From: Lobosporangium transversale
Taxonomy: Eukaryota
Assembly: GCF_002105155.1 (NCBI RefSeq)
Contig: NW_019028980.1
Span: 1,302,001 to 1,366,000 of the forward strand
Reading direction: 5' to 3'
Length of the DNA: 64,000 bases
The notes beneath the pieces were generated by a model. That model made no database searches and was not told where the DNA came from. It saw nothing but the letters and a program-made list of their open reading frames with translations. Below are positions 1 through 55,143 of the stretch, piece after piece. Made by a program: the position numbers and the translations under genes. How positions within the stretch are numbered: the first letter of the stretch is position 1; each line of letters opens with the position of its first letter.

Positions 1-1104
1 TGCGTCGGCACGTCCAATGAGGTTTTCTATTATAGTGATCATTGGACGGAGACGACCACAGGACCAAGTATATAGCATCCCGATTGCTTGATCATTAAAA
101 TGGCCTCTCAGCTTTGATGCAGAGCTTGAGGAACCTTGTTTCTCCAAATATCGTACAAGTGTCTTGAAGTATGTCCGGACTTTTGCTTGATTATCCCATC
201 TAGGAAACGATACTGCACTCTTGAACCTCGAGTCATCGAGAACTTCTCGATATTCCTTGAAGCTTTGCCAGTTCTCTTAATCCAAGCAGGATCATAAATA
301 CAAAAGCCTATCCCGCAAGGAACTATGCAGATTTGTAGTAAATTCTCTGATAAACCCTCCAATCCATGAAAGAATGCTGATAATATTGGTCGCTTAGTGT
401 TGTCGTTATTAATAAACTGGTATTTAGCCTCCCCTCCCCATATCCTGCGTCTCGTTCAAAATAACCAAAAACATAGAGTTGCCTTGATGCCGCTCCGAAA
501 GGACCCTGATTAGATTGTCGAACCAATCTTGCAGGAGCTTGTCAAGGCAATTAAAGCCAACTCCACCAAGTAATTCTGCTACTTTTGTGAAGAGCGCTAG
601 GAATAAATCTGTCCTGGATGGAACCGAGTTTCCTCAATGAACTTCTCCAAGGACCTGTGGACACACTTGCAATAGCATCCATTGGCTAGGCGTCATTCTA
701 CCTTCGGACAAGTAAAAAGGGTAAATTGATGAGCATCAAATATAAAACATAAAGGCACTTTTGCTTACGTTCTTCAAGGGGTATACGAAAACCAAACTGC
801 GATTAACCGCCTATGAACGCAAGACACAGAACATTTGGTGAGATTATAAACAAGCGTGGATATCCCAGACATCAAGGACCTTTTCCTCCTAATCTCCCAT
901 CCGTCTAGCATGGCTCCCAAGGTAATTGATGTGAGAGGGATGATTCTGGCGAGATTGATGCCCTCAACAGCATGTAGCATTAATATACCGAGAACTATGA
1001 ATATATTGACGACACAATCTAATATTGTATCACATTTTACCGGTCAAGCGCGTGGCAGCCTTGGCCACATTCTTGATGTTTTTTTATTCCATGTCCCTGG
1101 ACGC
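1..1104 (-). pseudogene. Decayed, headless CRN-type C-terminal NTPase module (runs off the window edge)
   Basis: Manual minus-strand translation across stops and frameshifts gives TPSQWMLLQVCPQV, FLVILNETQ (degenerate Walker B), RPILSAFFHG...CIVPCGIG, FPRWDNQ and LYTWSCGRLRPMITIIENLI. These resemble motifs I recall from Mortierella CRN NTPase domains. I see no ubiquitin-like head exon between it and the upstream CRN stop at 1706. Confidence 0.7.
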
Positions 1105-1198: not shown

Positions 1199-1269
1199 GC
1201 ACGCACCATGGGGCTAAAACGACATTTATGTCTTTAGAGCGGAGCTGTCATCCTAGCTCCTGGTTAAAC
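1199..1269. repeat. CRN-associated hairpin site S1
   Basis: GCACGC-ACCA-T-GGGGCTAAAACGACA...TGTCATCCTAGCTCC-TGGT-TAAAC. Imperfect inverted repeat with the same outer motifs as 44366-44435 and 46797-46863 but a different core. Confidence 0.75.
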
Positions 1270-1270
1270 G

Positions 1271-1560
1271 TTCTGGCGCCCTGGATGATGATAATTGATA
1301 GGCCTTCCGCAAGTGGCAAGCATCCAGATGACAAAGCATATGAGAAAGGATAATTTCCTATGCCAGCTGTCCTGGTGATAATAATATGGTTTTGGGTCTC
1401 ATCATCAGACTCTCACTGGGTTCTCCACAGGATTCTTCATCTCTATCCGTTTTTACAAAACTCTTTGATAATAGTATCACAAAATCCTGCACACAAGATC
1501 GCATAATGACACAGCTTTATAAAGTTCTAAATGCCCCAGTAGAAGGCAGGACGGATTAAA
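1271..1560 (-). pseudogene. Truncated remnant of another CRN NTPase module (Walker A region), ending at site S1
   Basis: Reads HIIITRTAGIG/(K)LSFLICFVIWMLAT/LSIIIIQ over frameshifts, which aligns by eye with LFVTGTPGIGKSAFLVYFAIRLLAE..PPIIIFQ of the intact CRN next door. Confidence 0.5.
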
Positions 1561-1705: not shown

Positions 1706-4159
1706 TTAATTCTTCAGATTCGTACCGGCTGATCCTCCTGAATATGCAGCTTCGGTGTCGATTTTTATAACACGCTGTCTCACATCTTTTACGCATTCAG
1801 GTGTTTTCTCGGCAATCCAACCTTCGAGGGTACGAAACTTCTGAACTTTAAAATCGTCATATACGTTTCCTGGCACCGCAAAATAGAGGAAAATGGTATC
1901 GTCACTTCCCTTCGACATTGATTGGTCTCCCTTCGACTTTGATCGGTGTCCCTTCAAGCAGGGTCCAGTAATACAATCAATTATCTCCTTGAATGGTGCT
2001 TGCTTGATTGAATGCTTCCCTGCTACTGTGACTTGAAATAGCTTGTTGGGTCCCAATGCAAAATCAATGCACGGAAATTTAGAATGTGCTGGTACAAACA
2101 ACTTGTCAGCTGCTTGAGTGAGCCCTGATAATTCCTCTGGAGTCCGGAAAAACACCACTTCTGGATTTGCTGGAAAATCAAGAAATCCTGTTTCGCCTGA
2201 CTGGAGATCCCTAAAGGGAAATCTAATATCACCACGTCGAAATAAGTGATGAGCATAGATTTCAAACACCGGGCCTTTAGCTATATCCTCTCCGCCTTTG
2301 ACAAGTTTCGCCAATACATCGACCCAAGTGTTATCTTTTATTTTGTCCATAATCTGTGATTCGACCCAACGAGATGCCCACACCAGGTAGAAGTCGAGAT
2401 GGTCAGAAGTGGGGACTCTATGGAGTAAACGACCACTAAATGCACTCGCATCTTTTCCTTGTGCAAAGAGGCTTACAAGATCTGCTGGCTTCTCGAGTGT
2501 GTCAATGGCCGCCTTGACGCGGGAAAACGCACTTTTTCTAGCTTCCTTAATATTTTCTTGATCCATGGATAGTGAAAAGGCTGGGGCCTGTAGGACCTGT
2601 CTTGGTACTCCCCCCAACTTGTAAAAAAGCTCCTCCAAAAATTCTTCATCCACTAGATGATAATACTCTACATTGGCTCTACATTCTTTAAGCTCGTCCA
2701 AACTCCAGAGTGACATGTGATAGTAGCTAAAGCGTGCAGTTTCCTTGGCGAATTCACCGTACTGCTCATTGAGAGTTTTTGGTGATGCCGCAAATATCGT
2801 CCTGGCTTGATCTGGTAGAGGGTTCTCACTACTATCAACTAAGTACCACGTTTCAGGTCGAGCAAGGAAATCTTCGAACATCGTTGTATTCCCTTTACGT
2901 TGGCAAGTTGTTCCTCCATAAACATAACATCTGTCATGCTGCTTATCTTGGAAAATAATAATCGGTGGATTTTCCTCATCGTGTTCGGCAAGGAGGCGGA
3001 TGGCAAAATAGACCAAAAAGGCTGACTTCCCAATTCCAGGTGTTCCAGTGACAAAGAGTCGGTTCAAACCAGTTTCATGAGGGGTACTTAACCTGGATGT
3101 AATATGGTCATAAAGCTTTTCATATTCTTCTCTGATATAAAGATGCCTTGTTTTAGCAATAGGGAAGACACGACCCTCAGGGGCAGTCAATATTTTGGAA
3201 CCCTTGATACCACCAGAATTTCGGAGCTCGCAAGCCACGCTAACAATGCTGTAGTAAATACTATCTCCTGATAACTCCTCCCCCATGTACGAAAGCACCT
3301 TGACCCTCTCTTTCGAGTTGAGAGGCGAGAGGACAGGGCTACCATTCACTATCCCTTTCGTTACAAGCCCCGCTTCTGTAATCGCATCCCTAAGAGCACC
3401 TCTGCTACTTATACTTGGACGAGCTTTTTTAGAGGGTGACTCTGATAAAGGAGATAGAGTGATCAAAGTCAATATTTTTGATTTATTGCACTGCACATCA
3501 CTCTAAAATTGATCAATAACCAGCTTCTCGGCCAAAAGCACTCACCAGAATCTTCATCTTGTTTTCTTTTCTGAGCTAAGTATCAAAAGCGAATAATGAG
3601 AAAGAACGTTGAGTTATCAAGACACAAACCAAATGGTGATATCATGCACATGGCCGTTTAAGATATAAACCAAGCTTCATCAACTGGAAATATCAACAAT
3701 CAGTCCATCAAGAGCCAAAGATATACCTCGCTGTGGTGGCTTGACAAAAACATGGATAGTTTCCTCTGGAAGTTCGGAAATAAATATGTCCCCAAGCTTC
3801 CTTGACGCGACTGTAAGAGCCTCTTTTGACTCGATTTCTGACTCAACGACGATCTTGCCTTTGTCAGGGATGGAGACCCTGTAGAGAGTTAGCTTCTCTG
3901 GTGGGATATCACCAAACCTAGCAGGCGAATAGATGATTTGCTTGAGTTCATCGACTGAACAATTGGAAAGAATCTTTACAGAAAAAGAAGTTGCTTCTCC
4001 ATCAACAATACAATAAATCTGTAGGCTGGTTGGTTCGGGGATTTTAGGGTCATTGGTGCTTGAAGACTCTTCCTTCGCTTCCCCTTTTCTTTCTTCTTTC
4101 CTTTCATACGGTTTAGTTCGAGGTGATAGGCATCGTGGTGATGTTCTGTCGCTTCCCAT
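1706..4159 (-). CDS. Crinkler (CRN) family effector, locus A: ubiquitin-like CRN N-terminal domain + P-loop NTPase + restriction-endonuclease-like domain; apparently intact
   Basis: Predicted exons 4159-3727, 3575-3546 and 3441-1706 with GT-AG phase-1 introns that join in frame. Head: LQIYCIVDGE...VDELKQII...IHVFVKPP. Walker A GTPGIGKS, Walker B WYLVDS, GGVPR motif, REase-like FPCIDF..LFQVT. Confidence 0.88.
3622..3664. repeat. Possible shortened or degenerate hairpin site S4 in intron 1 of CRN A
   Basis: GACACAAACCA...GTTTAAGATA versus GGCACGAACCA...GGTTAGATA of S3 (9/11 match on the left motif). It lies in the same intron as S3 does in CRN B, but the stem is poor. Confidence 0.4.
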
Positions 4160-5243: not shown

Positions 5244-5990
5244 AAGGGCGTGATGTTTTGGTTTCCAGCACGTGCTGGAAGAAAACGAGCACAAACCTAT
5301 TGCCCATACAGCACAAGCTGATTGCCCATACAGCACAAGCTGATTGCCCATACAGCACAAGCTGATTGCCCATACAGCACAAGCTGATTGCCCAAACAGC
5401 GCGAACCTGTTCTGAAACAGCATGAACCTGTTGTGAAACAGCATGAACCTGTTCTGAAACAGCACAAACCTTTTCTAAAACAGCGCGAACCTGTTCTGAA
5501 AACAGCACAAACCTATTGCACAAACAGCGCCAACCTGAAGAAAAAGCATACAGGCTTAAAAAAATCCACAATCATTTGCATGCATAACAGGCTTCTTCTC
5601 TTTTCGCACTACCATTACCATTGCCATTACCATTACCATTGCCATTACCATTACCATTGCCATTGTCATTCTCATTCTCATTCAATTCTCAGAGAACCTT
5701 CTGCATCATCCCTATAAACACGCTTAATACCACGAACAGTTGACAGATTAACTTTATTTGTCTGATCTTGTCTCACAAAGCGGCCATGTACTTTAATAAT
5801 TCAGTAAATGCTCGGCATCTCTGCCTCTGCTTTCTCTTTATTACTAATGTTGACTATATATAGTCAAAGCCAACTTCTACTTCCATAGCTAGGCTTCTAT
5901 ATCTCTATATCTCAAAGATCTTAAAGACCAATAATCATCGTCTGTGACGCCAAGTAACACTGATACAATTGTACTAGATTCTTCTCTTGC
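5235..5990 (+). repeat. Left long inverted repeat with internal 22-bp and 21-bp tandem arrays and a (CCATTR)n microsatellite
   Basis: ATTGCCCATACAGCACAAGCTG x4 (~5299-5390), AACCTGTTCTGAAACAGCATG-like units x5-6 (~5404-5530), CCATTA/CCATTG run ~5612-5665. Confidence 0.95.
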
Positions 5991-6235
5991 AACAGCCTTC
6001 GCAAAGAGACAAAGGGAACAATCTTTAAATATGTTGAGCCCATTTACTCAATCCACATAAAACAGTTTGTTCCCCTCGTGGAGGAGAGAACCCTCGATAT
6101 ACGATAAAACTTTTTTTGTCCATATTCCTGTTTTGTTTAATAAAGTTTTTTCTGTTCTCATGCTCCCACTTTCCATTCCTCTTCCTGAATCAGTCTGCCT
6201 GACCTTGAAACGCAATTCCTTTTTTTTATTCAACG

Positions 6236-9200
6236 ATGAATGATAAGAGTGAGAATTTCTTGTTTGACAAAGAGCATGGCGAAGAGTATGGCGAAGAGTA
6301 TGACGAAGAGTATGACGAAGAGTATGGCGAAGAAAATAACGACGACTTTGATGAATATCACTCATTCAACCAGGAAGTCAGAAAATCTAGACGAAGACCC
6401 TACTTTCAACGAGAATAGGTGCGAATTCGAGACTGACGATGATTACAGCGGGTTTTCTGGAAGGCGATCGCCTGTAAGTCTATACCTTTGACTCTTAGTT
6501 GCTAGTTAATACTTGATATCCCTTGCTTCGAGCCTTTTTACTGACTTCTTCCGTACGCGTCAATGCTTCTGTAGTCAGAGAGCCTCATCGACCGACGCGC
6601 CCAGCGGCAAGCGCAGGCGAAGTGTGATATATGGCGTCGTGGTCAGGACAGACACGAACAAGAGCAAGTTGATGTTTACCAAAGCAACGATATTGACCAT
6701 TCTGGCGGAGAATACAATGTCTTGGGCGTGAAGACGCGCGAAGGGCGTTCAAGGTCTATGTTCGAGGAAGTGCAAACACGCCAGTTGCCCCAAGTGACTT
6801 CAAGAAGCGAAGCCAGCGTCGCCGCCAGTAGCATCAGGTCTGCCCAAGCCAAACGAGGATATCCTAAGACTCCTTCTCCTCCAACAAATCAGGGACTGCC
6901 TATTCAACCTGCCAGACCTAGGTCATTCCTACGTTCAATCTCAGCATCCCATGTTCTTGGCTCACCCTCTACATCCACATTATGCGCTCCGCGACAATCC
7001 CCACTACCACCGCTACAAAGGGCCGAGAGCTTTCATTATTATCGCAGTCCACAGCCTAGGTCTTATCTCCTCAGTTACTTCATCGTACTCTGGACGGCAT
7101 AGAGATATGCATGGCGTTCAGCCCAAGTCGCCCATCTCCCTGCACCAGACCTCTCGGGCATCTTCATCGTCCTCCTCTTTTCGTGGACTTCCTCAGATCT
7201 CACGAGATTTAGCCTATCCTTTATCTTTTGACAACCCATAAGCAACCCTGCTTGCAGCTGAAGCTGAAGCTTTGGAGCAGCGTCGACCTAACCTACGTAC
7301 CAGTCATGGAGCATCGGAGACATGGTACACGCTATATGAATCGCTTGAACTTGGCGTTTTACCTTCGCCCGAACGGTGCGACGACGCGCCCGCCTCACAA
7401 AAGCCTTTGGCACAAGTCCCAATACATAAGTCCATACGCAAGTCTAGTATCCTTGGACATTTCTATAATACAGATGCATCTGGCTTCTTCGAATGCCAGG
7501 TTAAGAACAGTCTCGGGGTAAAGTGTGGCATAAAGTACAAGAAGTTAGGGGCGGCAGATCACGAAAAAACCATCTCCTCAAAAACCACTCCACAATATAT
7601 GAAGCTGTGCAGGAATTTCGCCTCTATCAAGGCATGGTCCAGAATGTCAAGTCGTCGAAAGATCAAGATGATGATGATGATGAGCCCCCTAGACCACAGG
7701 GGAACTTCGAAGTGGCTAGAGAGGGATTTGTTCTTACGACTATGAAGAGGCCACTTCCGTATGAACAACAGTTCTTCGAGAAATTACTTTTAAGGCTTAT
7801 CGCCGACAACGGAGCGACCTTCAAAATAATTGGCTCGGATTCTTTCAAGGCAATATGTTTGCAACTTAATGCATTATACGTAATTCCAAGCACAGACGCT
7901 ATCCAATCAAACATGGATTTAAGTGTAATGCATATGTGGAGGCAAATCGAGATACATCACTGATCGTAAAATTCAAGGCGCAATCACAGCGGATAGTTGG
8001 ACAAGCGGTGATCAAAGGAAGTTCTTTGGAGTAACATTTCACTTTCTAACACATGACTTTCAGCCGGCTTCAGTTGTGATTGGCATGGAACGAGTCCAAG
8101 GCCCTCAATCGGCAGAAGTCCTATTGGAAAAGCTTGGTAAGAATATCATAGCTTTAGCTCTGTCGGTTTACTGCCTGTTTGAGACCTATGTAAATAACAC
8201 TTTTAATCCTGGAATTTGTTCTATAGAACGTGTAGTCGCAAGATGGAATTTGGAAGGGCATTTGATCTGTGCAACAACGGATCAAGGGTCGAACATAAAA
8301 AGAGCCATACAGCTTTATAATCTAAAGAAGAGTATTACCTGGCTTCCCTGTTTTTCCCATGTAATACAGCTGTGTATCAATAAGGCATTGGAACGAAGTT
8401 CTGGAGCTAAGGCGGTGATGGAAAAATGCCAAAAGATCTCAACCTTCTTCAGAAGCTCCAGTCTTGCTATGGATCTGCTTAACAATCAGCGTAGCAAAAG
8501 TAACAAAAAATTGGTCAAACTGCTTACAACGAATGTCACGCGATGGAACTCAAAATTCAACATGGCAGCAAGGGTGCTTGAAGTTTCAGAAGCAATTACA
8601 GCGGTCTATCAATTAATGAGGGCAGGATCCAAAGACGAAAAGCTCAAGGCTGCGGAGCTCGGGCGGCACCTCCTTGTCGAGGGAGAGATCGAGACCCTGC
8701 AGGAGATTATCACGCTCTTGGAGCCGGCTGCCAAGCTTACACACTGGGCAGGCGCACATGATAACCCGACCATTTCGCAAATCTATTTGAGGGTCTACAC
8801 CATGCTCCCGGCGCTTACAACATTCCGAACGGAAGAGACGAGAGAGTTATGGCAAAGCCTGGACGAACAGATCAAAAAATCGTGGCCTCTCCAGGACATT
8901 CCAGATACCGTGCTCATTTCTATATTCCTGAACCCTGCTTGCGCAGCACTCGATATCTTAAAGGATACGATGCATGCTAGTGGGGAAAGTCTGTTTATAA
9001 AAGCAAAAAAACTCTGCAGCGAAGCCTTTAAGATATTCAAAGAGAATAATACAGTGACAAAAAATCCATTGCAAACGAGTGATTATCAGATACTCTACTT
9101 CTCTTCGAATTTTGCGGTAGAGCTCTACGCTTCATCGGTACGCTTGCCGGACTACAATCACGATCGCTTTAAAGATAAGCCTCAGGACTATTGGAGGCCA

Positions 9201-9416
9201 TATGGCATCGATGAAAATATCTCAGTTGAGGAACTTGCCCACTTCGCGCGCTCGTACCTCTGTATCCAGTCCACATCAACTGAGTCTGAGCGTTTGTTCA
9301 GTAAGGCAGGGCTAGTCCTCTCTCCACTTAGGACCAACCTCAGTGATCGAAATGTGCGCAACATCATTTTTAGTCACAGCTTTGAGAAGATTCGGACTTT
9401 GTTAGACTTACAATGA
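6236..9416 (+). pseudogene. hAT transposase (BED zinc finger, DDE core, C-terminal dimerisation domain), frameshifted
   Basis: BED-like CQVKNSLGVKC...HLLKNH split by a frameshift at ~7550, with a second shift at ~7952. Then TADSWTS, TTDQGSN, PCFSH (CxxH), TRWNS and YLCIQSTSTESERLFSKAG. Likely 90-nt intron 8137-8226. The 5' boundary (acidic N-terminus from 6236) is uncertain. Confidence 0.9.
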
Positions 9417-10094
9417 AATAAATTAAGCGTTTTTATCTACACTGCGCGTCAACAGTGTTGTATTTTGTCCACTACTTGTGAAAGTAGTATAAAGTGATTG
9501 GCAATATTAAGTTTTAGCTTTATTCTGAAAGATGCGTCTATATTTTGGACTCCATCAATGAAACTCGCTATATTTTAATGCTCAGACGGAGGCCCAGGCC
9601 GTTGTGATGACATAAGGACATCTTCCTTTGACTTTGCAGCTTTTTTTCTGATTACTCATCGTAATGTGGTAATTCTTCATCTATTAATTCTCGAAGCTAA
9701 TATCTAGAGGATTTACAAACCACTCATCAATTTCAAAGAATGTATTGATCAAGCAGATGTCGGGCGCGTTTCACCCCTTTCTTTATGAGAGCGTTCTTGA
9801 GAGAAGACAAGTCAACTAATAGGACATTGGATAGGCCAGAGAGCAACTTTAACATGGCATTATGTTTAAATTTTACTTTGATATCCCGATGAGAATATGC
9901 TGTATCGCCATGCCGGTTGAAGAAATAAATGATAAAAAGCTTTTTCTCATACCATTTTTAATGACTTACACTTAACATCTGCCTCAAGAATAAAGTATAT
10001 ATTCCACGGAGTGACAACCATGGCGCCTGAGGGATAGGGACTTCAGCATTGCTAAGCCAGGGCAAGACTTCTTTTACTAAGCCCAAAAAGAGTG

Positions 10095-10850
10095 GCAAGA
10101 GAAGAATCTAGTACAATCGTATCAGTGTTACTTGGCGTCACAGACGATGATTATTGGTCTTTAAGATCTTTGAGATATAGAGATATAGAAGCCTAGCTAT
10201 GGAAGTAGAAGTTGGCTTTGACTATATATAGTCAACATTAGTAATAAAGAGAAAGCAGAGGCAGAGATGCCGAGCATTTACTGAATTATTAAAGTACATG
10301 GCCGCTTTGTGAGACAAGATCAGACAAATAAAGTTAATCTGTCAACTGTTCGTGGTATTAAGCGTGTTTATAGGGATGATGCAGAAGGTTCTCTGAGAAT
10401 TGAATGAGAATGAGAATGACAATGGCAATGGTAATGGTAATGGCAATGGTAATGGTAATGGCAATGGTAATGGTAGTGCGAAAAGAGAAGAAGCCTGTTA
10501 TGCATGCAAATGATTGTGGATTTTTTTAAGCCTGTATGCTTTTTCTTCAGGTTGGCGCTGTTTGTGCAATAGGTTTGTGCTGTTTTCAGAACAGGTTCGC
10601 GCTGTTTTAGAAAAGGTTTGTGCTGTTTCAGAACAGGTTCATGCTGTTTCACAACAGGTTCATGCTGTTTCAGAACAGGTTCGCGCTGTTTGGGCAATCA
10701 GCTTGTGCTGTATGGGCAATCAGCTTGTGCTGTATGGGCAATCAGCTTGTGCTGTATGGGCAATCAGCTTGTGCTGTATGGGCAATAGGTTTGTGCTCGT
10801 TTTCTTCCAGCACGTGCTGGAAACCAAAACATCACGCCCTTTCTCTTCAG
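10095..10850 (-). repeat. Right long inverted repeat of the hAT element
   Basis: Reverse complement of 5235-5990. Confidence 0.95.
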
Positions 10851-10854
10851 AATT

Positions 10855-11584
10855 AATCTATTTGACAACCCGGGTTGTCACTCTTATTTGACAACCCCCC
10901 CCCCAATTTAGCAGTCACACCGGCTTATTTGGCAACCCAAGGTCTTCAATTTTCACTTTTTTGTTATTTGACAACCCGGTTGTCAAGAAAAGAAGAAAAA
11001 TTGTCTTTTTCAACCTGTCACATGACAAGTCTTCACCCTCTTGCACTTATGGAGGGCCTTTCTCAGCTGGATTTCTAAAATGGTGGCAACACTCCATTAT
11101 CATGACTGTGGTTATAGCTTCTTCTGTCTCTCTTTTTTTCCTTTCCGCGTCTTACGCATGCGCCATCAAGCGTCGCATAACCACTCCGAATTTATGTATG
11201 CTTATATATCCAAAAACCCCTTAGTGCATGTTACCCGTATAGGCACATTTTCTATAAAGCAAACCCTTGTTTTAGAAATCAGTTGTAATAAAAAACAACA
11301 CCTCGTAACCAAAAAAAAAAGCTTGTTATTTGATGGAAGCTTTTAGATTGCTGGAGGGATTTCGTGTTGCTGAGGGATAGCAATAGAAACGATTTTCACA
11401 TAATAATCTTGCCAATAAAAAAAGGGTTGTCAAATAACAGTGAGCTTGGGGTTGTCAAATTAGATATTTTACTATTTGGCAACCCGGGTTGTCACGCAAA
11501 GAAAAAAAACTGAGAAAAATAATTAAGGGGGGGGGTTGTCAAATAAGAGTGACAACCCGGGTTGTCAAATAGATTCACCCCCTG
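10855..11584. mobile_element. Non-autonomous hAT-like MITE (~730 bp), left tip missing
   Basis: ~49-bp TIR AATCTATTTGACAACCCGGGTTGTCACTCTTATTTGACAACCCCCCCCC at 10855, inverted at ~11527-11575. The right end finishes CACCCCCTG (reverse complement CAGGGGGTG, hAT-like). Many subterminal TTTGRCAACCC motifs; no ORF. Confidence 0.85.
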
Positions 11585-41700: not shown

Positions 41701-43784
41701 TAGTTTACCATCGATATTCAATAACGCGACTAGATCTATTTTAGCCTCGCGTTCCATGCCAAGGTCTTTCCCTCCAGTAACCTTTTCATTTATTCCATCC
41801 GTATTTATACCTGTTTCACTCACCGTACTAGCGTCGTTTATTTCTGAAGCATGCATCAGCTCAATAGACTGCAATAGTAACTGATCAAGGCGCCTATCAA
41901 CGGGCGAATTTATCCAATAACCTTATTTTAAGCCACACTCTCTTCCAACATTTGCAGGGTCATTTTGATCTGTTGGATTGACAAAAGGCGTTGAAGAGCC
42001 CAAGTTCCTCACCCTTTGAGCTCAATTCATTGCCTTGCCTGAATCGGATTATAAATCTCTCCTCATATATTCGCAGTTAATCCAAGCCCTCCCCCTTAGT
42101 ATCTTCCGCCTCTTTTTCCCAAATAGGATGCTCGATGCAACTATGTCATGCACAAACAGCAAGTGGGAAATGCTAGAATTTAGCTGTTACATAAACAGTG
42201 CTTTGCCCAATCTCTAGATTGTTCCTTGTAGAAGAACTACATAATATAAATAGTTGTCTCCGTAGTCCTAGCTAGACTTTCCTCAGCAATAATAAAATCA
42301 ACCATAATCCTAGACCCTTGGCCCCTTGACCTATACTTTTGCAGGTCGTGTGTGGACATTTGGAGAGAGAAGCTTTTGACATTGATCACTCTTACAGACC
42401 TACAAAGAAAACCTCAGGCCATCTTCCACTGAACGTGTGGGACAGGGAGAATGACATAATATATTCCAGTGCATGACACTCCAAGATAAAAACACTAAGT
42501 GACCAAGACTTCAAATTCATCCTAGACTATTTCATTTGCTTAAGCTTCGTGTTTTACATGGATTTATGATTCCAAAACAATTGGACAAAATTGTCCTACA
42601 AACCTTTCGGTTTTAGGTATCGACACATCTGTATGGTCTGGAACTCTAGACCAACATAAAAAAAGAATAGTTTATAATGTTCATGTTTGCTCGAAAGGCA
42701 GGCTTACTAACCCTATCTGTCTTGCATAATTCTTGAATGATATCATGTGGTTTTTTTAATCACAAGGGTCATGGTCATGGGGTATGTTTGCATCACGTAT
42801 AAAATGAACCTTTTCTGCATCACCTTTTCAACTCTTTGCCATTCTTCCCTCACATATTTCTCTCTGCAACACAATCAGTTAGGCCCAACCTTGAGCCACA
42901 AAGGTTGAGAATTGGAAACCACTGAGGAACCGCCAAGAGTCATTTCCACCATACATTATGGTGTAAAGGCCCATATGCACCATCGATATATAATATCTGC
43001 GGTGTGAACTGTAGCTACGAAGTTAATGAGAAACTCATAACTGCGTGGATAAAAAGTAAGCAGGATATACTATCCTTCCTACCTTTGACAGTAAGCCAAT
43101 ATACTTAGTATATTGAAGAGTAGAACGAGGGGCCCGCCTAAGGCAGGTCAATGAAGAATGTGCCCATCCATTCGTGACATGATTTGTCTCGGGTAAGGAA
43201 GCTATGATAGAAAAAAAAAAAAAAAGGATGTCTATCTTTACGTTCTTAGCCATTAACCATTATTCATAACTCATAAACCTCTTTTAATTACATCTCTTGA
43301 AGAATGTGTCTATGCTAAGGTAGCCAGGAGACGGTTTCCCAGCAAGTTCAAGTACCGCGTGGCCAGTTGGTCCGTTGTACCGGATGCGACCTAGTCGCTT
43401 GATACGATTTTTTCGCTTGTTCGGCCATGTGGAGTCCACAGGTCTAATAAAGTCAGAATTCTTGACCATGTATACCAATCGTCATGAACATGATTGACTT
43501 GATATGTGTGTTGTGTATTATGTATGGCGGCTGCTCGGCATCTGTTGTATTATTTCCGTATCTGCCTGGACTTGGCAGTAATTAGCAGAATTGTTTTGGT
43601 TTCTCTTGAATGGCCGCCATCCAGGGAGCTAGCTAGATTTACTGGAGTTCACTGCATTGTTCAAAACAAGACTATTCTACTGGTACTCAGCCAACTCTCA
43701 AAATGTGATGTAAAACAACGTCTAAAGACACTTCAATAAAATTATGAGACGGAGAATAGGATATTCTAGCCTCTTCTATGTACT

Positions 43785-44335
43785 GGCGACTGTTCGGACT
43801 CCATCTGATACTGTACAAACACCTGAACACTGCCACATGCTATTGGCTACTCTATGTCCCTTAAACAATATTCTTAGCATACATCCGAACTTTTGCAAGG
43901 GATGTGTCAATACTTCGACAAACAAATAACATTTAATGGCTACATCACAGCCCTTGGATTGTGGAAGCGCTGAAAGTATGCGGAAAACGGGAACCATTTG
44001 TGTTTTTACTAGCAACAAGCGTGGTTTCAAAAAAGTGTGCCTCCAAGGAACAAGTCCTATATCCTTCATTGCTCAAAAGAGACAATCTTGTCTTTTCTGC
44101 ACCCCAAAAGCTCGCCATAATCCTATTGAAGCGTTCAGAGGCAATATTTGCCTCATAGTTTGAGGATTAGCAGACTTTCAGTCAAGCTTTATTGTTTTGA
44201 ACAAACACAGTAAATCCTGTCCATTCGAAGTTAGTCCCTTTGGATGGCAGCTATTCAGGGGATGCTAATCATTTCCGCTAAATTGCGGTGAAATCAGAGC
44301 AGATTTGGAAAACCAACAAGCACCGAACAGTCGCC
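43785..44335. mobile_element. 551-bp MITE, copy 1 (Tourist/PIF-Harbinger-like TIR)
   Basis: Begins GGCGACTGTTCGG and ends CCGAACAGTCGCC. Near-identical direct copy at 54593-55143. No real coding capacity. Confidence 0.85.
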
Positions 44336-44365
44336 TTAACAAGTGAGCGAGGATCTCTATGGCGC

Positions 44366-44435
44366 GCACGGACCATGGGGCGACTTTTCAAATTCTTTTT
44401 ATAAAGAAGAAATCCAAAGTCGTCCCCGGCTAAAC
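44366..44435. repeat. CRN-associated hairpin site S2 (185 bp after the CRN B stop)
   Basis: GCACGG-ACCA-T-GGGGCGACTTT...AAAGTCGTCCC-CGGC-TAAAC. Direct repeat of 46797-46863 with 7 substitutions and a 3-nt indel. Confidence 0.9.
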
Positions 44436-44620
44436 ATTTCACCGAGGTGGAACAATGAAACGGATTCACAGTTTTGAACAGAACAGCTTCCATAGCTATG
44501 AATGAATGAATGGATACTTGAGTGGATTGACAATGGCGATTGAAATAGCGCCTTTTGTGATGCAGATGTATAATACAAGTCTTTTATTGACTGTCCAAAA
44601 TTTCGAGTTGATTTAGGTGA

Positions 44621-47374
44621 CTACGACATATAAGCCCGAAATAACTTCGACTTGAGTTCATCGTAGCATATATGTCTGATTTGAGGATATTCGATGACTT
44701 TGCCTGTGTGATTAGGAGACCCTGCATTTTTATCAGCTTTATTTCCACCACAGATGTAGACAATTTGAAAGTCATTGCAGGGCTTTCCATCTCTTGTGAC
44801 TGCAAACTTCTTGACGGTCTTTCTTTTCTTACTGCTCCCTTCATCATTCTTGTTGTTATCACTACTCTCATCATTTCCCTTTCTTTTCTTAATTCCGGCA
44901 TTGGTTCCTTTGCCATCGCTCTGGTTGTTACCTCTCCCCCTATTCCCCCTATTGCTCTTATTGCCCTTTCTCTTGTCATTACTGGCTATATTGTCGTTCT
45001 CGTCATCAGCAGGTTCTTCAGTCATAGTTGCTTGGTGAACACCACCAAATGCAGCATCCAAATATTCCTCAATCTGGTTCTTACCTGTGGCTTCCCTTTT
45101 CGAAAATGCCTTGTCAATGTATACTGAACCTGTTGGGTCGTTATGGACCGTGAACGAACTAACCGACACTTGGATGAACATGTAGCCCAATATAAAATCG
45201 AATCGTGCATACGAGCCTCCGTTTATCAGGATCTTTTTGCCATCTTCTCCTATAGTTTCAAGCATCCTTGGTGGCGTTCCTATTAGCTCGTATCCCGAGA
45301 TATTGAAAATAATATCCATCTCGTTAGTGCCCGCAAGATCCGTTGACTGGAACGTATGAGACTCTCCTCTAATAAGCTCCCGAAATAGGGCCTCTTGAAA
45401 TTGGTTCCCATCGCTTGGATAGTTATATCCTTCCGGATTCCTTGGAGCGCGTGGAAATAAGTTGATGCCGCATTGGAATAGAAATCGAAGCATACTTTGT
45501 CGTGTGCTATTAAGCCGCTGTCGATCTGCTCCACCGTGGGCTGTTCTCCTTTTATGCGTTTTATTGAATCAATCAAACTGACCAAATCGCCCGGTACTCG
45601 GTTGGTAATCCTAATAACAGTGTTCTTACGACTCTCGAGATTCCTTTGAGTTGTCAAATCGAGGTGAGAAATGACAATTTTAAATAGTTTTTCGAACGTG
45701 TCTGGCGACAAAGGCCCGACATAAACGAGATAAAAGTCTGAATCATTGAGGATGGTCCTTTCAAACTTGCCATGTGCACTGCCTGTGAACACAACACACG
45801 CTCCACTATTTACACCACTCGCCCAAGTGTTGAAGCTATCCAGAGAAGCCAGGATAGGAAGCCTACTTGTTGCATGAGCTTTGTCGCTAGGAAACAGAGC
45901 ACCATGCTCATCGACAATGAAGAGAGTCTTTTCCCCTTGTTGTTGGAGTAAGTCTCCTAATATGTGCTCGGCAATAGCTTCCACACTCCCACAATTTGCC
46001 ATGGTGGAGAGCTCTTTTGCAGTCAAGATATCCTTATTGAGATCTAGGAAGCGTTGACAAATCACTCTTGATGCCTCACATTCTCCTGACAAACAGCAAG
46101 GGCCCTTGCGTCAGCGATGTAAAGAACTGGCCAGCCATGAGCATATGCCTTAGCGGCAAGAAACCAGGTTATATAGGACTTCCCGACTCCCATAGGGCCA
46201 GACAAACATTTTGTAAACGCCAAACCAGACTTCTCGGCCATCGCTTCCCATAATTCCATCATCTGCTCGGTAACAAGATCTTGACTCTCTAATCCAAAGA
46301 GCTTTGGCTTATGACCAAGGGCTTTTATCTGTATCTGATCGCCAGCCTTAACATCCTTCAGTAATGAGAACTCCAAACGACTGTCCGGCTGGAAGTTGGT
46401 ACTATTGAGCATATCTGTCAGGAACTTGGGTAAAGATACTGTCTTCCCATTGGCTAAAGTATAAACTTCTCGGGGTTCCGAGGGGCCAAGGCGCTTTGTA
46501 GAGTGCTCTTTGAGCATATTAAATAGCAGGACTGACATGAGTATGAAATAAACAAACTTCCTCAAGAATCATCAAAACTATGAGCGGGATAAACTCACCT
46601 TCTAAATCTCCGTCTCCTGTGTCTTCTAGGTTCCTTTTTGGGCTTCTTGGGGCTGTTTAAAATCCATGCAATAAATAAACAAGAGGATAGTTAGATAGGG
46701 CCTTGATAAAAGTACTTGTATGCGATAGGGCAGTGGGAAGCCGAAATAAGCCCAAGTAAAAAGGCTCGCGAGAGGACAGTGAGAGTCAGAGTATAGGCAC
46801 GAACCATGGGGCGACTTTTCAAATTCTTTTTATAAAGAAATCCAAAGCCGCCCCTGGTTAGATAGTTTAGCCATGATACATCTCAAACATAAAGAGCTGT
46901 TTTGAATTACATCAATGACGTCATGAATGACAATAAGCTTCGTCAATTAAAAATATCAACAGCCATCAGTCCATCAAGAGCTAAATACATACCTGGCGGC
47001 GGCAGCTTGACAATGATGTGAATGCGACCTTTTGCTGCACCTTTTGGAAAATAAGTGCTGAGTTCTTCAAGTTCATCGAGCACTACAAGCGATTCTTCGG
47101 ATAATGTTTCCAATCCTTTCTTCGTTGTGCCGCCGGGGATGAGCTTGAGAGTGAGCTTCTCCGGTGGGATATCACCAAATCTAGCAGGCGAATAGATGGC
47201 TTGCTTGAGTTCATCAACTGAACGATTGGAAAGAATGTTTACAGAAAAAGGCGCTGCTTCTCCATCAACAATACAATAAATCTTTAGGTTGGTTGGCTCT
47301 TTCTCAACCTCTCTTTCTCTTTCAATCGAACCACGTCTAGATGGACCATTTGGTGTTGTTGTTCCGCTTCCCAT
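44621..47374 (-). pseudogene. Crinkler (CRN) family effector, locus B: ubiquitin-like head + NTPase + REase-like domain; frameshifted as assembled
   Basis: Exons 47374-46993, 46652-46599 and 46507-44621. Head LKIYCIVDGE...IHIIVKLPP, Walker A GPMGVGKS, Walker B FIVDEH, REase-like RFDFILGYMFIQVS. Frameshifts near 46090 and 45410. Confidence 0.85.
46797..46863. repeat. CRN-associated hairpin site S3 inside intron 1 (46992-46653) of CRN B
   Basis: GCACGA-ACCA-T-GGGGCGACTTT...AAAGCCGCCCC-TGGT-TAGAT. Confidence 0.9.
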
Positions 47375-47973
47375 TATGATTTCAAAACTGTTTAAAAACA
47401 AGGGCGTAAATGGACGGAGGACAGAAAACCGGAAAAGTTTGATCAAAATGTTAGGTATGGTAAGTCAGTAGCAGGATGGTTCAAAATTGTGACAATGTAA
47501 GCTGTGGAGATAAAGGTGAGGGAGGAAAAGAAAAAAAAAAAAAAAAAAAAGGAAAAAAATGGCAATGAATGAAGGCTTGGACAAAATGAAAAAGGAAGAG
47601 AGGGAGGAAGGAGAGCAAACTTGACGGGAGCAAAACCGGAGGGAAATAAGAAAAAAGTGAAAAAATAAAGGAAGAGGAAGTGAAGCAAGTTAAAGAAAGA
47701 GCGACAATTGATAAATTTGTTCCATTATTTCAAAGTTGGGCTGTGCTGTGTGTGAGAAAATATTTTTTTCTTGATGTGACGTATTATATAACATCAAACA
47801 CTCTTGTTTTCACCACACAATCGAAAGTATGCACACCCATTCTTCACCCTACATTCATCCCACTATGAACATGTCTAATACTCCCTCATTCCAAGAACAA
47901 GAAGCTGTTACTGATATTGTAAGTGTTCAAACGCGAATAATATTTTTTGTATCAGTGCTTTCTTGGTGAAATA
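47375..47973. repeat. CRN upstream/promoter block, second copy, including the start of the divergent gene
   Basis: Homologous to 4160-4915 with indels; homology stops at the retroelement edge at ~47974. Confidence 0.92.
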
Positions 47974-50900
47974 TGCCAGGATCATAATAAGTAACGAGAA
48001 CGAAAGAAAGATGTGTTTATTATGATCCTGGGATCTTCGTTAAATAAAAAGAGTAAAAATCTTAGCTATAGTAAAAACCCATATAAATGACTGCTAATCG
48101 CAACATAACTACTCCCCCAGACGAGCGTCCAGGTAAGAGCGAGTGCTTACAAAGCTTGGAAGGAAAATATATAAAATCTTCCTATTAGGATAATTAGTAT
48201 CGAAGGAAAAGTATAAAAACCTTCTTGTTTGAAAATAAATAAATTAATTCTTTGAAGGAAAATAAATAAAACCTTCAGCGTCTGCATTTCTTTTTAGATG
48301 CGACCATAAAAAAAGGATAAAAATAATAAAACCTTAAGTTTGATTTGATAGTGAGGAAAACGTTCATGCTTGTTAAGATATGCGTACAAAAACCTCAGTG
48401 AAGCTACATTCGTTTTTGCTTCTACTTTCTGTTCTTTTGTCTTTTCTGAACCCTTGACTCTACAACTGTTGCGGGTTGCTTCCTCTTAGCCATTTTGGCA
48501 ATCATATGAGGGTTTTGCTGATTAAGCTTTTTATAGTACTTATTGATCATTGCTTTGGAGTCAAAGTCTTCGTACCTAAGTTGCGAGTTGTGCTTATCGT
48601 CATACCCTTTCCACTTAACTGTGTACAGTGTCTCTCCCCCCTTAGAAGTTTCATGACTCAAGATAGCTTCGACTTCATAATGATCATCGGCATCATCCGA
48701 AGCATCAAGTGGTCGATCCACTAGCTTAAGCTGTTCAGGAGCAAAATTACGAGGTAGTAGTTGTCTCATCGCGTCACGGAGAACATATGTACCACGAACA
48801 GTGCGGCGAACTACTTGAAACGGCCCAATGTACTTATTATCAAGTGTACTATTAGCCAAGGGGTCTTTGATCATCACATAGGCGGCAATAGGAAAGTCAG
48901 TTATAAAATGATTTGAGTTGAATTTATCCACCATTTTCTGCTGCGAGGCTGTACTCTTATCTGCAATAGCAGGGAATAAAAGGTCAGTAAGATACTTTAA
49001 GCGCTCATTCAATTCTGATTCAGATAGCAATCGTGATTTCGATACCGAGAAGTCAGATATGCCGGCGAAAGATCGACCATAAAACAGCGCAAAAGGCGCC
49101 GAGCCATGAAGGCTAGAAGCTCTAGTATTCATTTGTAACTGGACCATAGGAAGCTGGTCATCCCATTTAGTGATTTCGCCTTGAATAGATTTCTGCAAGA
49201 GATCTTTAAGGGTACGGACATTACGTTCTGCTAATCCATTGGCCCGAGGATGATAAGGCGTTGTAAGCCTATGATCAATCTTAAGCTTGGTAGTTAACAA
49301 TCTGACAACAGAGTTGACAAATTCAGTCCCATTATCACTCTGGATAATTTTAGGGAACCCAATGGAGCAGAATAATTTGAAAAGTCGAGCGGCGACAGTA
49401 ACCGCATTCCGATTAGGTAGTGGTTCGATAAAAACAAACCTCGTGCATGCATCTACGGCGAGAAGAGCGTATTCGTTGCCTGCGTCACTGACAGGAAATT
49501 GGGCTAGGTCAATGTCTATGTGCTCGCCTGGTAGAGTAGCATGTATCGCTTTGAGTGGATGATAGCCTTTACGCACGATATTATAGTGCTGGCAAGCAGA
49601 GCATTGTCTTATCCACTGATTGCAGGCTTCACGCATTTTGGGCCAGTTATACCCTTGCTGCTGCAATGATACAACCATGGCATTAATGCCAAGGTGTCCA
49701 AAGCTGTGTGTATCTTTCAAAAGTTGCTTTTGCTGATCATCAGTAGGCGTCACTCGTTGCACTTCTTGATCTTGAATCTGGTGCACATAAGGTAAAGAAG
49801 TATTAAAACTTTCAATCCTTGGAATAAGATCTGCTGATTGCGTAACTATTGGAGGATCAGTTGTGTCAATGGAGCGTAAGCTGCGTCTTGTTGATACTGC
49901 AGATACTCTTGTAGACTCTGATTGAGAAGACTCTGGATGGGTCGGACTATTTTATCGGGCCCATAATTCATCAGGAAAAGCTCTCGATAGCGCACCAGGA
50001 ATAATGTTCAGCAATCCAGGTCTGTAGATGCATTGGAAATCATAGCTGAGAAGGGTTTCTCTCCAGTCCGCTAAGATCTGTGAAAGTTCCTTTTGTTCAT
50101 GAATATAAGTGAGTGGTTTGTGATCAGTGTATAGGGTGAATTTGCGACCCCATAAGTAGTAGTGAAACTTTTTGCAAGCATAGATAATGCCTAAAAGTTC
50201 TTTCTTATATGCTGGGTAGTTGCGTTCGTGGTTCTTTAAAGCTCTAGCCATAAAAGAAATATAATTGACTTTGGTTCCATCTTCAGGACCATTTGGTAAT
50301 TGGTAAAGCACTGCGCCAATGCCTAGATTGGACGCGTCAGTGGCCACATAAAGGGGCTGAGAGAAATCAGGGAATGACAATACAGGTGCTGATACGATGA
50401 GCTGTTTCAACTGATTAAAACAACGCATTTCTAAATCACCAAGTGTAAAGTGTCCTTTGACGTTTCTCAATTTATCCAAAGGTGCTGCCAAAGTACTAAA
50501 GAGGGGTATGTATTCTCTGAAGTAGTTAAACATCCCAAGGTATCTTTGTACCATTTTGCCATCGGTGGGAGGAGCCCATGATTGAACATTAGCAACTTTT
50601 TCTGGATTAATCCTTCTACCATTTGTATCGATGACGAACCCGAGCAACAAAACTTCCATGCGGAGGAAATTGCTTTTTTCCTTATTGATAATCAGATTGG
50701 CACTTGTCAATAGTTTGATCACCATTTTGACATGTTCAGTGTGCTCTTCAATGCTGTCGGAGAAAATGACAATGTCATCAACATAAACGCTAACGAAGTG
50801 AAGATATCCAAGCAATTGAGATATTCCTCTTTGGAATATACTGGTCATAGGCTTCAACCCAAAAGGAGCACGAGCAAACATATATTGTTTGTTCATATGC

Positions 50901-52996
50901 TTAAATGCCGTGTAGGGTTGGCTTTTCTCATCCAGAGGTAATCTATGATATGCTTGTGACAAGTCAATTGTAGTAAAATACTTATGACCTGCAGCTCGTT
51001 CCAATATTTCGGAAATGATAGGGATAGGAAAGTTATCAATATCCACGAGCTGCTTGTTCAGCGTTCTTGGGTCAAGACAGACTCTGTATTTAATAATTTC
51101 GCCTTCTAAATTCTTCCTTGCTGCTAGTGTGAGAGAGTTATTATAAGGATTGCCCTTAAGCGCCTCATTATAACTCCGCTGTCTAACCAATTCTGTACGG
51201 TGGTATTGACTTCATCCATTTCTACTTGCGCGTAGAACCTACGAGAGCGTTCTTGGATCACACAGTCATCTCTGACTTTTAGATGGACTCTCATAATGTC
51301 TAGTGGACAGTGACTCTTAGGGTCAATCTGGCTATTAGAGCAAAGGAAGGGATAAATGGCTAATAAGAACTGCTTCTTCTGTTCGACGAATTCAGTTTCT
51401 AACTCTTGGTCTTTCATAGTGGAGGGCACAAGTGGCGGTTTACTTTCATCATCTAATAAATCATCTGCCTTTTCAGCAACAGCTGTAGCTATGCCATGGA
51501 TCCCAAAGCCGAAGCGATAAAATAGATCCATTCCGATAAGGAAGTCGTAATAGCCCATAGGCATCACACTGACTCTGCATTCTACTGTTCGGTGATTACA
51601 AGAGAGAGTAATAGCATCTACTGTGCCGACATTTTGAAAACCAGTAGTGTCGTCTGCAAATTTAATTACAGTATTTTTCGAGGTTGCAGTCCTTATTTTG
51701 AGGTCTTTGGCTACTTCTCGACTGATGAAGGATACGTTGGAACCAGGATCAAATAAAGCCGTGTACAATAGGCCATTTATAGTTATGGGAACAGATATTC
51801 TGTTGTCTTCCGGTTCAGGTCCTCTATAACCAATATTTCTATTAGGTTTGGGATCCGCATAATTGTCATGCGGATGTGGTGCTTTTGATTGTGATTTTTT
51901 AGAATTTGATACAAAATCCAACAACTGATCTATGTCCTTTATAGCGTCTAAGGACTTGAATTCTCCGAAGACTCTTTCCTGACCGGCATCGGACAACGTC
52001 GTTATGACCTTGCCGTAAAGGAGCACGCCCATGGGCTGTAGCCCACCAGCTTCAACAATTGACTCTATTCTGTCCGCGAAGGTATTGGCATCTTCGTGAG
52101 GCAAGACAGTAAGGTCTGTAATTTGGCAAGTGATCCAGGATCGAATTAAATCGAGCTTCAGGATCAAATGGATGCTCCTTTTGACTTGCTTCCAAGAGCG
52201 ATCGCCATAAGCTTCTGTCTTTATCAGGCGGTTGTACTTGTTATCCAAGCGGATCTGTTCTAGAGCAAATCCCATGTACCGCCAAGCTAAGTCCTCGAAG
52301 AGATCGTCCGTCAGGAAGTTATGGTAGTACGTCTCGAAAGCCTTGAGGAAGTCGATAACAGTTCTTGCCACCTTTAGAGCTATTTCTTTCTCAGGTACAT
52401 TGTCCAACTGGAATTTAAGCGTAGGGGCATTCGCTTTCTTCTCCAGCTCGACCCTTGAGAAGTCGATTTCTTTGGTAGTTATGTCTAGGACAGGGACCCG
52501 TTTGTAGTTGAAAACTCGGATCAATGCAGCATGTTTCTTGATTTCATAATCAGGTGCGATATCAAGACTGCCGCTGTCCTGCATATCAACATCGCTGGGA
52601 GAAGAAGCGGCTCGTTGCTTGACAATCCGTTGACGTTCCTTGCAGATGGCTTCCTGGGCTTCAAGGTGATCTTTGATAAGCTTATAATGGGCTTCAGCCG
52701 CGTCATAGTCTTTTGTAGGGATTTGAGCTGATTGTGAAATTCTCGCTGAGCTTCTTGCTCTTCTGGGGAGCGAGGTCGTAATTTAGATTTTTGGTTATTA
52801 TTGTAGTTGGTGAGCAGGCGAGTTTTTTCGTCCATACATTGCTGTCTTTCCGCATCAGCCTCTTGGAGAGACTGCTCAAGTTCAATAAGGCTTGGGGAGA
52901 CAAGTTTACTTCAATTGTCGAGGGCATCGCAACGGTAGGGTTTTGAGCTTCAACGACAAAGGAAGAAGGAGTGGAATTGATTGAAGTAGAGTTCAT
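47974..52996 (-). mobile_element. Ty3/Gypsy chromovirus LTR retrotransposon, disrupted and apparently lacking its 5' LTR
   Basis: Order Gag-PR (LFDPGS)-RT (YVDD)-RNaseH (ATDAS)-IN (HSFGH..CSAC, DID/SDNG/AERN, GPF)-chromodomain (YEVEAIL..YTVKWKGY). In-frame TAA at 49952-49954 and frameshifts near 51170 and in gag. PPT-like GGGGGAG at ~48112-48118 precedes a short putative 3' LTR ending in CA at 47974. Confidence 0.93.
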
Positions 52997-54590: not shown

Positions 54591-54592
54591 AT

Positions 54593-55143
54593 GGCGACTG
54601 TTCGGACTCCATTTGATACTGTATAAACACCTGAACACTGCCACATGCTATTGACTACTCTACGTCCCTTAAACAATATTCTTAGCATACATCTGAACTT
54701 TTGCAAGGGATGTGTCAATACTTCGACAAACATGTAACATTTAATGGCTACATCACAGCCCTTGGATTGTGGAAGCGCTGAAAGTATGCGGAAAACGGGA
54801 ACCATTTGTGTTTTTACTAGCAACAAGCGTGGTTTCAAAAAAGTGTGCCTCCAAGGAACAAGTCCTATATCCTTCATTGCTCAAAAGAGACAATCTTGTC
54901 TTTTCTGCACCCCAAAAGCTCGCCATAATCCTATTGAAGCGTTCAGAGGCATTATTTGCCTCATAGTTTGAGGATTAGCAGACTTTCAGTCAAGCTTTAT
55001 TGTTTTGAACAAACACAGTAAATCCTGTCCATTCGAAGTTAGTCCCTTTGGATGGCAGCTATTCAGGAGATGCTAATCAATTCCGCTAAATTATGGTGAA
55101 ATCAGAGCAGATTTGGAAAACCAACAAGCATCGAACAGTCGCC
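54593..55143. mobile_element. 551-bp MITE, copy 2
   Basis: Same length and nearly the same sequence as 43785-44335. TIR GGCGACTGTTCG / CGAACAGTCGCC. Confidence 0.85.

What the first reader, a model, noticed from the sequence alone, without database searches (positions are those of the whole stretch)
44366..46863. CRN C-terminal toxin module bracketed by directly repeated ~70-bp hairpin sites: candidate integron-like cassette system in a fungus
Seen: S3 (46797-46863) lies inside intron 1 of CRN B, between the head exon and the NTPase-REase module. S2 (44366-44435) lies 185 bp after the stop. They are direct repeats with sharp edges and no similarity outside, delimiting a 2431-bp unit of splice acceptor + micro-exon + toxin exon. 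A third copy, S1 (1199-1269), sits after CRN A, and a degenerate candidate S4 (3622-3664) lies in intron 1 of CRN A; S4 to S1 spans 2423 bp. All copies I found are tied to CRN modules. Known: CRN effectors diversify by swapping C-terminal domains behind the N-terminal domain, and bacterial integron cassettes are bounded by folded attC sites. Inference: these are recombination or insertion sites that load promoterless toxin cassettes behind a fixed promoter and head exon, with the junction removed by splicing so the frame is preserved. I know of no described site-specific mechanism for CRN shuffling.
Basis: partly seen in the sequence, partly recalled or inferred. Interest (0 to 1): 0.93.

Follow-up and report, generated by a model that had tools for sequence, protein, structure and literature searches.

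The report
Hairpin sites bracketing fungal toxin modules
A 70-base DNA site predicted to fold into a hairpin sits, in the same orientation each time, in the first intron or just behind the toxin part of some Crinkler genes in two soil-fungus lineages; it likely serves as a cut-and-join point for moving toxin modules, which would be a new way for a eukaryote to shuffle toxins, but no mover enzyme or excised circle was found.

Summary
S1, S2 and S3 are real; S4 is not supported. They share fixed ends (RYYYARCC ... GCCCCATGGTnCGTGC), are 67-71 nt long and lack a target duplication. The window is probably Lobosporangium transversale.

New evidence: the same site, with a different but pair-keeping stem, lies in intron 1 of a Crinkler (CRN) gene from another lineage (L017, E 1.4e-9), before a different module type. 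A second L. transversale record implies an S1-type site behind a divergent module. Sequencing runs suggest tens of copies; the placeable classes mostly adjoin CRN sequence.

Against a general integron-like system: 56 of 57 relatives' heads and CRN A lack the site. Homology often runs through it. The attC 3' core is not met, and no circle or recombinase was found.

Best reading (0.4): a single-stranded hairpin site that an unknown enzyme uses to move CRN modules in a subset of genes. Rivals: a CRN-targeted tiny mobile element spread by gene duplication, or the end of a rolling-circle unit.

The parts
46797..46863 (-). S3, hairpin site in intron 1 of CRN B
   Evidence: (z -5.1 on the gene strand)
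44366..44435 (-). S2, hairpin site 185 nt behind the CRN B stop; followed by 30 nt, a 552-bp MITE and other DNA
1199..1269 (-). S1, hairpin site with a different stem, between module A1 and the headless module A2
   Evidence: (z -3.5 gene strand, -0.65 other strand)
46993..47374 (-). CRN B head exon (Crinkler N-terminal domain), phase-1 donor
   Evidence: Pfam PF20147 E 5e-15; 99% to P0062 over 89% of the head
46653..46992 (-). intron 1 of CRN B, holding S3
   Evidence: GT/AG signals; exon map of P0062
46599..46652 (-). micro-exon of module B
   Evidence: P0062 residues 104-121; intron-2 joint 46507-46599 in run X1
44621..46507 (-). toxin exon of module B (P-loop NTPase, then a putative nuclease part); broken into three frames, near 46085 and near 45400-45460
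   Evidence: nuclease label is from family knowledge, not tested
3727..4159 (-). CRN A head exon; its intron 1 carries no site
   Evidence: Pfam PF20147 E 1.6e-16
1706..3502 (-). module A1, open frame, RHS-type P-loop NTPase; no significant similarity to the piece of module B compared
1355..1400 (-). remnant Walker-A motif of a further A-type module, about 85 nt before S1 (approximate limits)
1..1000 (-). A2, headless degenerate NTPase module behind S1, running off the window (start approximate)
3622..3664 (.).

Best explanation
The 70-base element is a CRN-tied DNA site, predicted to fold as a single-strand hairpin, that likely marks where an unidentified enzyme cuts and joins DNA to move or copy headless toxin modules behind a promoter and head exon in a subset of Mortierellaceae CRN genes. 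Shown: fixed ends, variable stem, one orientation, positions in intron 1 or behind modules, two lineages, several module types, many copies, no target duplication. Inferred: the gene-sense strand is the folded one; the enzyme (tyrosine recombinase or HUH type) acts in trans and reads the bulged outer stem and the CGTGC tail; a module leaves or is copied as a circle with one site and enters at another site, giving site-module-site as at CRN B; splicing removes the junction. Much of today's copy number likely comes from later duplication of whole genes or segments.
For: (1) A profile built from the window's three sites alone finds one site in 80 metagenome loci: L017 575-644, E 1.4e-9; the best hit that is not a site scores E 3. 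It lies in intron 1, on the gene strand, behind a head whose five nearest heads in the set are other metagenome loci, not the window's, and before another module type. (2) Length stays 67-71 nt while inner identity falls to 40-58%; 5 of 20 pairs change on both sides and 92.5% of cells pair. (3) The 5' box is RYYYAAC in S1 and S3 and RYYYAGC in S2 and L017, the attC box as given in PMC5027507. (4) No flanking duplication longer than 2 nt in 4 of 4. (5) P0001 has a module only 52% like A1, and its predicted tail reads through an S1-type site. (6) In DNA run X3 one contig class joins the site to a different upstream sequence at 46856/46857, one base from an attC-type AA|C crossover; in run X1 another contig joins it to a different downstream sequence about 20 nt past the site. 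(7) P0062 is a mosaic: head 99%, micro-exon 89%, toxin exon 72-88% like CRN B. (8) A headless module follows S1.
Against: Only 1 of 57 relatives' heads with sequence shown behind them has the site, although these heads carry diverse modules, including A-type (L024, L025) without it. CRN A lacks it, and A/B homology ends at 46935, about 70 nt before S3. In X3, three contig classes share about 100 nt (two of them 240-270 nt) downstream of S3 and one class shares the upstream spacer, so homology runs through the site as in whole-gene duplication. The segment shared with P0001 begins at 1526 or earlier, not at S1. Near-identical pieces of the already broken A2 are annotated six times in another assembly, which fits segmental duplication. 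No S2-S3 joint was listed (12 of 27 joints hidden, contigs drop rare forms). No recombinase among the 30 of 120 window ORFs scanned. Strand bias is modest: the gene strand folds better in 3 of 4 as RNA. The covariation count rests on four sequences, two nearly the same, and a structure derived from them.
Confidence: 0.4

Rival explanations
1. A tiny non-autonomous mobile hairpin that prefers, or is kept in, CRN genes and is then spread by gene and segment duplication. It does not direct module exchange, though two copies could recombine by plain homology.
For: Patchy presence (1 of 57 relatives' heads; CRN B yes, CRN A no). Homology runs through the site in paralog classes. Broken A2 is multi-copy. 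The related RHS genes of trypanosomes are named for being retroelement hot spots (PMC5289972; details recalled).
Against: No target duplication; asymmetric tail outside the stem; same strand as the gene in 4 of 4; the one outside copy falls in intron 1, a few percent of the 257 kb searched (rough figure); no unattached copy in about 55 kb of non-CRN window.
Confidence: 0.3
2. The site is the 3' end of a rolling-circle (Helitron- or HUH-like) unit. Head-plus-intron or head-plus-module segments are copied up to the first or a later site, which leaves sites inside and at the end of CRN loci with no ordered cassette array.
For: The sharp edge is at the 3' tail CGTGC in 4 of 4. S2 closes the CRN B locus and its upstream flank is multi-copy. 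No target duplication. CRN genes were linked to helitrons in P. infestans (PMC5289972, citing Haas 2009).
Against: No CTRR end and no A|T insertion on the gene strand; the hairpin is far longer than Helitron terminators (recalled); no Rep/helicase among the ORFs scanned.
Confidence: 0.2
3. An RNA element of the pre-mRNA that affects splicing or termination and so sets which downstream module is joined to the head.
For: Always on the gene strand; four positions alternate between A-U and G-U pairs on that strand; in L017 it abuts the branch point.
Against: No Rfam match; S1 and S2 lie 436 and 185 nt past stops, S2 with no module behind it; the site is absent from most CRN introns that splice by their signals.
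Confidence: 0.1

Closest known systems
Integron attC sites (PMC5027507; passages read)
   Same: Imperfect hairpin with conserved ends and variable inside, an unpaired base on one arm, an RYYYAAC-like box at one foot, direct repeats around promoterless modules.
   Different: The GTTRRRY box is not met; there is no unpaired central spacer; the fixed part is a 16-nt 3' motif; the bulge lies on the 3' arm of the gene-sense strand; no integrase or attI found; eukaryotic, junction in an intron.
CRN recombination at the HVLVVVP motif and helitron-linked CRN arrays of Phytophthora (PMC5289972 section 11 and passages; PMC3726527 passages)
   Same: Head domain fixed, C-terminal module variable, switch near the end of the head, tandem arrangement.
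   Different: In the passages read the hot spot is a coding motif and no dedicated non-coding site is named; here a non-coding hairpin sits in intron 1 and behind modules.
HUH transposons: Helitrons, Replitrons (PMC10288648; passages read), IS200/IS605 (recalled)
   Same: Oriented, hairpin at an end, usually no target duplication; Replitrons have terminal direct repeats.
   Different: The Replitron-1 repeat is 6 nt, not a 70-nt hairpin; Helitron end motifs are not met; no transposase inside the unit.
Crypton, DIRS and Ngaro tyrosine-recombinase elements (PMC13465315; passages read)
   Same: Tyrosine recombinases occur in Mucoromycota and could act in trans.
   Different: Cryptons have 4-6 bp direct repeats; DIRS and Ngaro have inverted or split repeats around a reverse transcriptase; none is described there with 70-nt hairpin sites.

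Membership tests
integron attC site | RYYYAAC box at the 5' foot | tested here: inconclusive
   exact in S1 and S3, one mismatch (AGC) in S2 and L017
integron attC site | complementary GTTRRRY box with conserved GTT | tested here: not met
   GTGCGTG, GTCCGTG, GTTCGTG, GTCCGTG
integron attC site | unpaired central spacer between R and L boxes | tested here: not met
   predicted outer stem is continuous but for one bulge
integron attC site | extrahelical base(s) on one arm and a variable terminal stem | tested here: met
   invariant unpaired A68; inner identity 40-58%; predicted folds only
integron | IntI-type recombinase and attI site | tested here: inconclusive
   none among 30 of 120 window ORFs; no whole genome held
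integron | circular cassette intermediates | tested here: inconclusive
   no S2-S3 joint listed in four contig sets; contigs cannot show absence
MITE (DDE class) | target-site duplication and symmetric terminal inverted repeats | tested here: not met
   flank repeats of at most 2 nt; CGTGC tail lies outside the stem
Helitron 3' end | short hairpin, then CTRR, inserted between A and T (motif recalled; AT/TT target in PMC10288648) | tested here: not met
   3' flanks
Replitron | short terminal direct repeats and a Rep HUH gene | tested here: not met
   repeat is 67-70 nt; the unit encodes an NTPase module
known structured RNA | Rfam match at gathering score | tested here: not met
   0 matches in window and L017
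CRN / CR effector gene | Crinkler N-terminal domain | tested here: met
   PF20147 above cut-off for both heads
CRN / CR effector gene | C-terminal NTPase with REase-fold nuclease | tested here: inconclusive
   P-loop hits are weak; REase fold not tested

The most novel reading that the evidence does not exclude
Some Mortierellaceae run a eukaryotic counterpart of the integron: a trans-acting recombinase reads folded single-strand sites to excise, store and re-insert promoterless toxin cassettes behind a fixed CRN promoter and head exon, with the site hidden in a phase-1 intron and silent cassettes kept downstream.
Probability: 0.3. Interest if true: 0.95.

Novelty: new variant of a known kind. 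Interest (0 to 1): 0.72.

Why it matters
How CRN/CR toxins swap C-terminal domains is an open question; the accounts read here invoke homologous recombination or helitrons. This gives a concrete non-coding site with a 16-nt invariant core that can be scanned in public Mortierellaceae genomes and tested in a two-site reporter. If it is a structure-read recombination site, it would be an attC-like system in a eukaryote and point to a new recombinase. If it is only a CRN-targeted mobile hairpin, it is still an element family not found in the searches made.

Tried and rejected
No whole genome is held, so the genome-wide scan could not be run. A strict site pattern found 0 in metagenomes; it would also have missed L017 by one base, so this blank says nothing. 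Looser patterns found 0 in viral contigs and 0 in prokaryote genomes. The bare core gave 25 viral matches, all at most 15 bits on the model: treated as chance. Plasmids gave three 35-39-nt matches at E 0.2. CRN heads in viral contigs: none. No RNA holder is on record; X1 is RNA by guess and by a spliced joint. Its cover falls to about 1.5 between the CRN B stop region and S2; one run, not used as evidence. Similarity between the spacers upstream of the sites: not significant. A search with the site-spanning tail of P0001 found only itself. ESM Atlas gave no usable hit for an A2 piece. S4 rejected. LTR/TRIM rejected (no TG...CA ends). Paper searches: Crinkler+Mortierella+recombination 5 papers, none on this by listing; integron-like+eukaryot+cassette+fung 4, unrelated by listing; CRN+Mortierellaceae+effector 0; Crinkler+site-specific recombination 0; Helentron+hairpin+Mucor+termini 0. 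Zhang et al. 2016 is not held and was seen only through the review PMC5289972; it, its supplements and Haas et al. 2009 may describe CRN flanking repeats. Earlier notes of this scan: six look-ups showed none on this site.

Full report
Setting. The window is 41% G+C and no whole genome is held. It carries two minus-strand Crinkler genes, CRN A and CRN B, both with a Pfam Crinkler head above cut-off. The 47 best of 61 homologs of module A1 are, where named, from Mortierellaceae and Jimgerdemannia. Proteins 99% identical to window frames are named Lobosporangium transversale by NCBI, so the window is probably that species.

Observation. S1, S2 and S3 exist as described. The core GCACGNACCATGGGGC occurs three times in 64 kb, always exactly, against a chance mean of 0.44. 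S2 and S3 are 88% alike over 67 nt. S1 has the same ends and a different inside (58-59% overall, 40-42% inner). On the gene strand the folds score z -3.5 (S1), -2.1 (S2) and -5.1 (S3); on the other strand -0.65, -4.1 and -3.9. S4 fails folding, profile, model and alignment tests, so CRN A has no site in intron 1. The toxin exon of CRN B is broken into three frames. A probable RNA run shows intron 2 spliced. Behind S1 lies a headless, degenerate NTPase module, A2. Behind S2 lie only 30 nt, a MITE and other DNA.

A copy in another lineage. An alignment of ten heads drew 149 metagenome relatives, of which the best 80 were kept. A profile built from S1-S3 alone found one site there, L017 575-644 (35.9 bits, E 1.4e-9; best non-site hit E 3). 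It is in intron 1, about 42 nt after the donor and just before the branch point, on the gene strand. The contig is 50% G+C, its head is closest to other metagenome heads (51-58%), and its module resembles those of L001, L027, L039, L045 and L047, not the window's. Across the four sites the ends are fixed, 5 of 20 predicted pairs change on both sides, and 0 of 500 shuffles reach the paired fraction; the structure came from these same four rows, so this overstates the support. Among 58 post-head regions L017 and CRN B hold the two most stable 70-nt folds. A covariance model finds nothing further in 321,450 bases. So the site is real, older than one species, and tied to CRN genes, but rare: 1 of the 57 heads printed (the other 23 loci matched only part of the head and were covered).

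A copy in another record of the species. P0001 matches module A1 at 52%, and its predicted tail matches window 1526-1176 at 70%, straight through S1. The amino-acid differences imply one A-T to G-C change in a stem pair (my inference from codons). The shared segment also holds a Walker-A remnant and starts at least 250 nt before S1, so here the site is inside the shared unit, not at its edge.

Copies in sequencing runs. Contig depth is not a copy number, so these are rough ratios to unique flank (about 9.5 in X3, 120 in X2). Summed depth at site columns of S2 is 523-831 in X3 and 4683-8087 in X2, which suggests tens of copies. In X3, three variant contigs (depth 31, 53, 62; about 15 copies) continue from the site into module-B-type intron sequence; one (112; about 12 copies) joins the site to the CRN B spacer; one (46) jumps from the site to the conserved start of intron 1. 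The flank upstream of S2 stands at about 8-14 copies. The classes I can place thus mostly adjoin CRN sequence, but many rows were hidden (263 loose ends, 14), so scattered copies are not excluded. Two rows bear on breakpoints: the class of depth 53 leaves the window's sequence at 46856/46857, one base from the attC-type AA|C crossover, and an X1 contig leaves about 20 nt past the site into a different sequence that is pyrimidine-rich on the gene strand. Against this, homology on both sides of S3 in most classes is what whole-gene duplication gives. No S2-S3 joint was listed. P0062 is a mosaic (head 99%, micro-exon 89%, toxin exon 72-88%), which places a switch after the head without fixing it at the site. 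Pieces of the broken A2 are annotated six times in another assembly.

Mechanism. Fixed ends, a bulged outer stem, a variable pair-keeping inside, one orientation and no target duplication are the marks of sites read as folded single strands by tyrosine recombinases or HUH enzymes (PMC5027507, PMC10288648). I put 0.4 on a site that directs module movement, 0.3 on a CRN-targeted mobile hairpin spread by duplication, 0.2 on the end of a rolling-circle unit and 0.1 on an RNA element. The evidence does not settle whether a site travels with the module before it or after it: the sharp CGTGC edge and the terminal place of S2 favour the first, the 46856/46857 switch the second. Intron 1 is phase 1 in CRN A, CRN B and L017, so a switch anywhere in it keeps the frame and a precise site is not required for that.

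Comparison. It resembles attC in build but is not a member: the GTTRRRY box and the unpaired spacer are not met, and no integrase was found among the 30 of 120 ORFs scanned. It fails the MITE, Helitron-end, Replitron and Rfam tests. Papers seen: PMC5289972 (passages and section 11), PMC3726527, PMC5027507, PMC10288648 and PMC13465315 (passages), PMC12957317 (abstract and outline, not used); others as search listings only; no supplements. Five searches showed no description of such a site. Zhang et al. 2016 and Haas et al. 2009 were not read.

Verdict. Observation partly confirmed, interpretation partly supported. The site is a real, apparently undescribed CRN-tied hairpin conserved across lineages; the cassette mechanism is plausible and directly testable but unproven. 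Interest 0.72.

Noticed in passing
window 43784-44335 and 54592-55143: A 552-bp MITE-like repeat, 97.6% alike, with inverted ends GGCGACTGTTCG and high depth in DNA runs; the 3-nt flanks of the two copies do not form matching duplications. One copy sits 30 nt past S2.
   Followed up: partly
run X8 on window 43500-47500: Matching contigs differ almost only by C>T (74) and G>A (131) of 224 places, unlike the other three runs: a repeat-induced or methylation-driven mutation pattern in a Mortierellaceae isolate.
   Followed up: no
window 5235-10850: hAT-like DNA transposon with 759-bp terminal inverted repeats, 99.7% alike, holding inner tandem repeats; a 49-nt inverted repeat pair follows at 10855-10903 and 11527-11575.
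   Followed up: no
window 48422-52782: Ty3/Gypsy chromovirus-type retrotransposon frames (protease, RT, RNase H, integrase, chromodomain) just upstream of the CRN B promoter.
   Followed up: no
L017 541-552 and window 46980-46988: Both site-bearing introns carry GTATTTAGC near the donor, found in 1 of 57 relatives (L017 only); in L017 it extends to a 9-nt repeat of the site's own 5' end.
   Followed up: partly
window 1-1000: Pieces of the broken module A2 are annotated six times at 90% identity or more in another assembly, mostly on short contigs; possibly a subtelomeric or archived cassette family.
   Followed up: partly
window 43300-43730: Very high depth in run X1 at 43500-43728 and a plausible plus-strand exon near 43330-43500: an unannotated host gene ending next to the MITE.
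   Followed up: no
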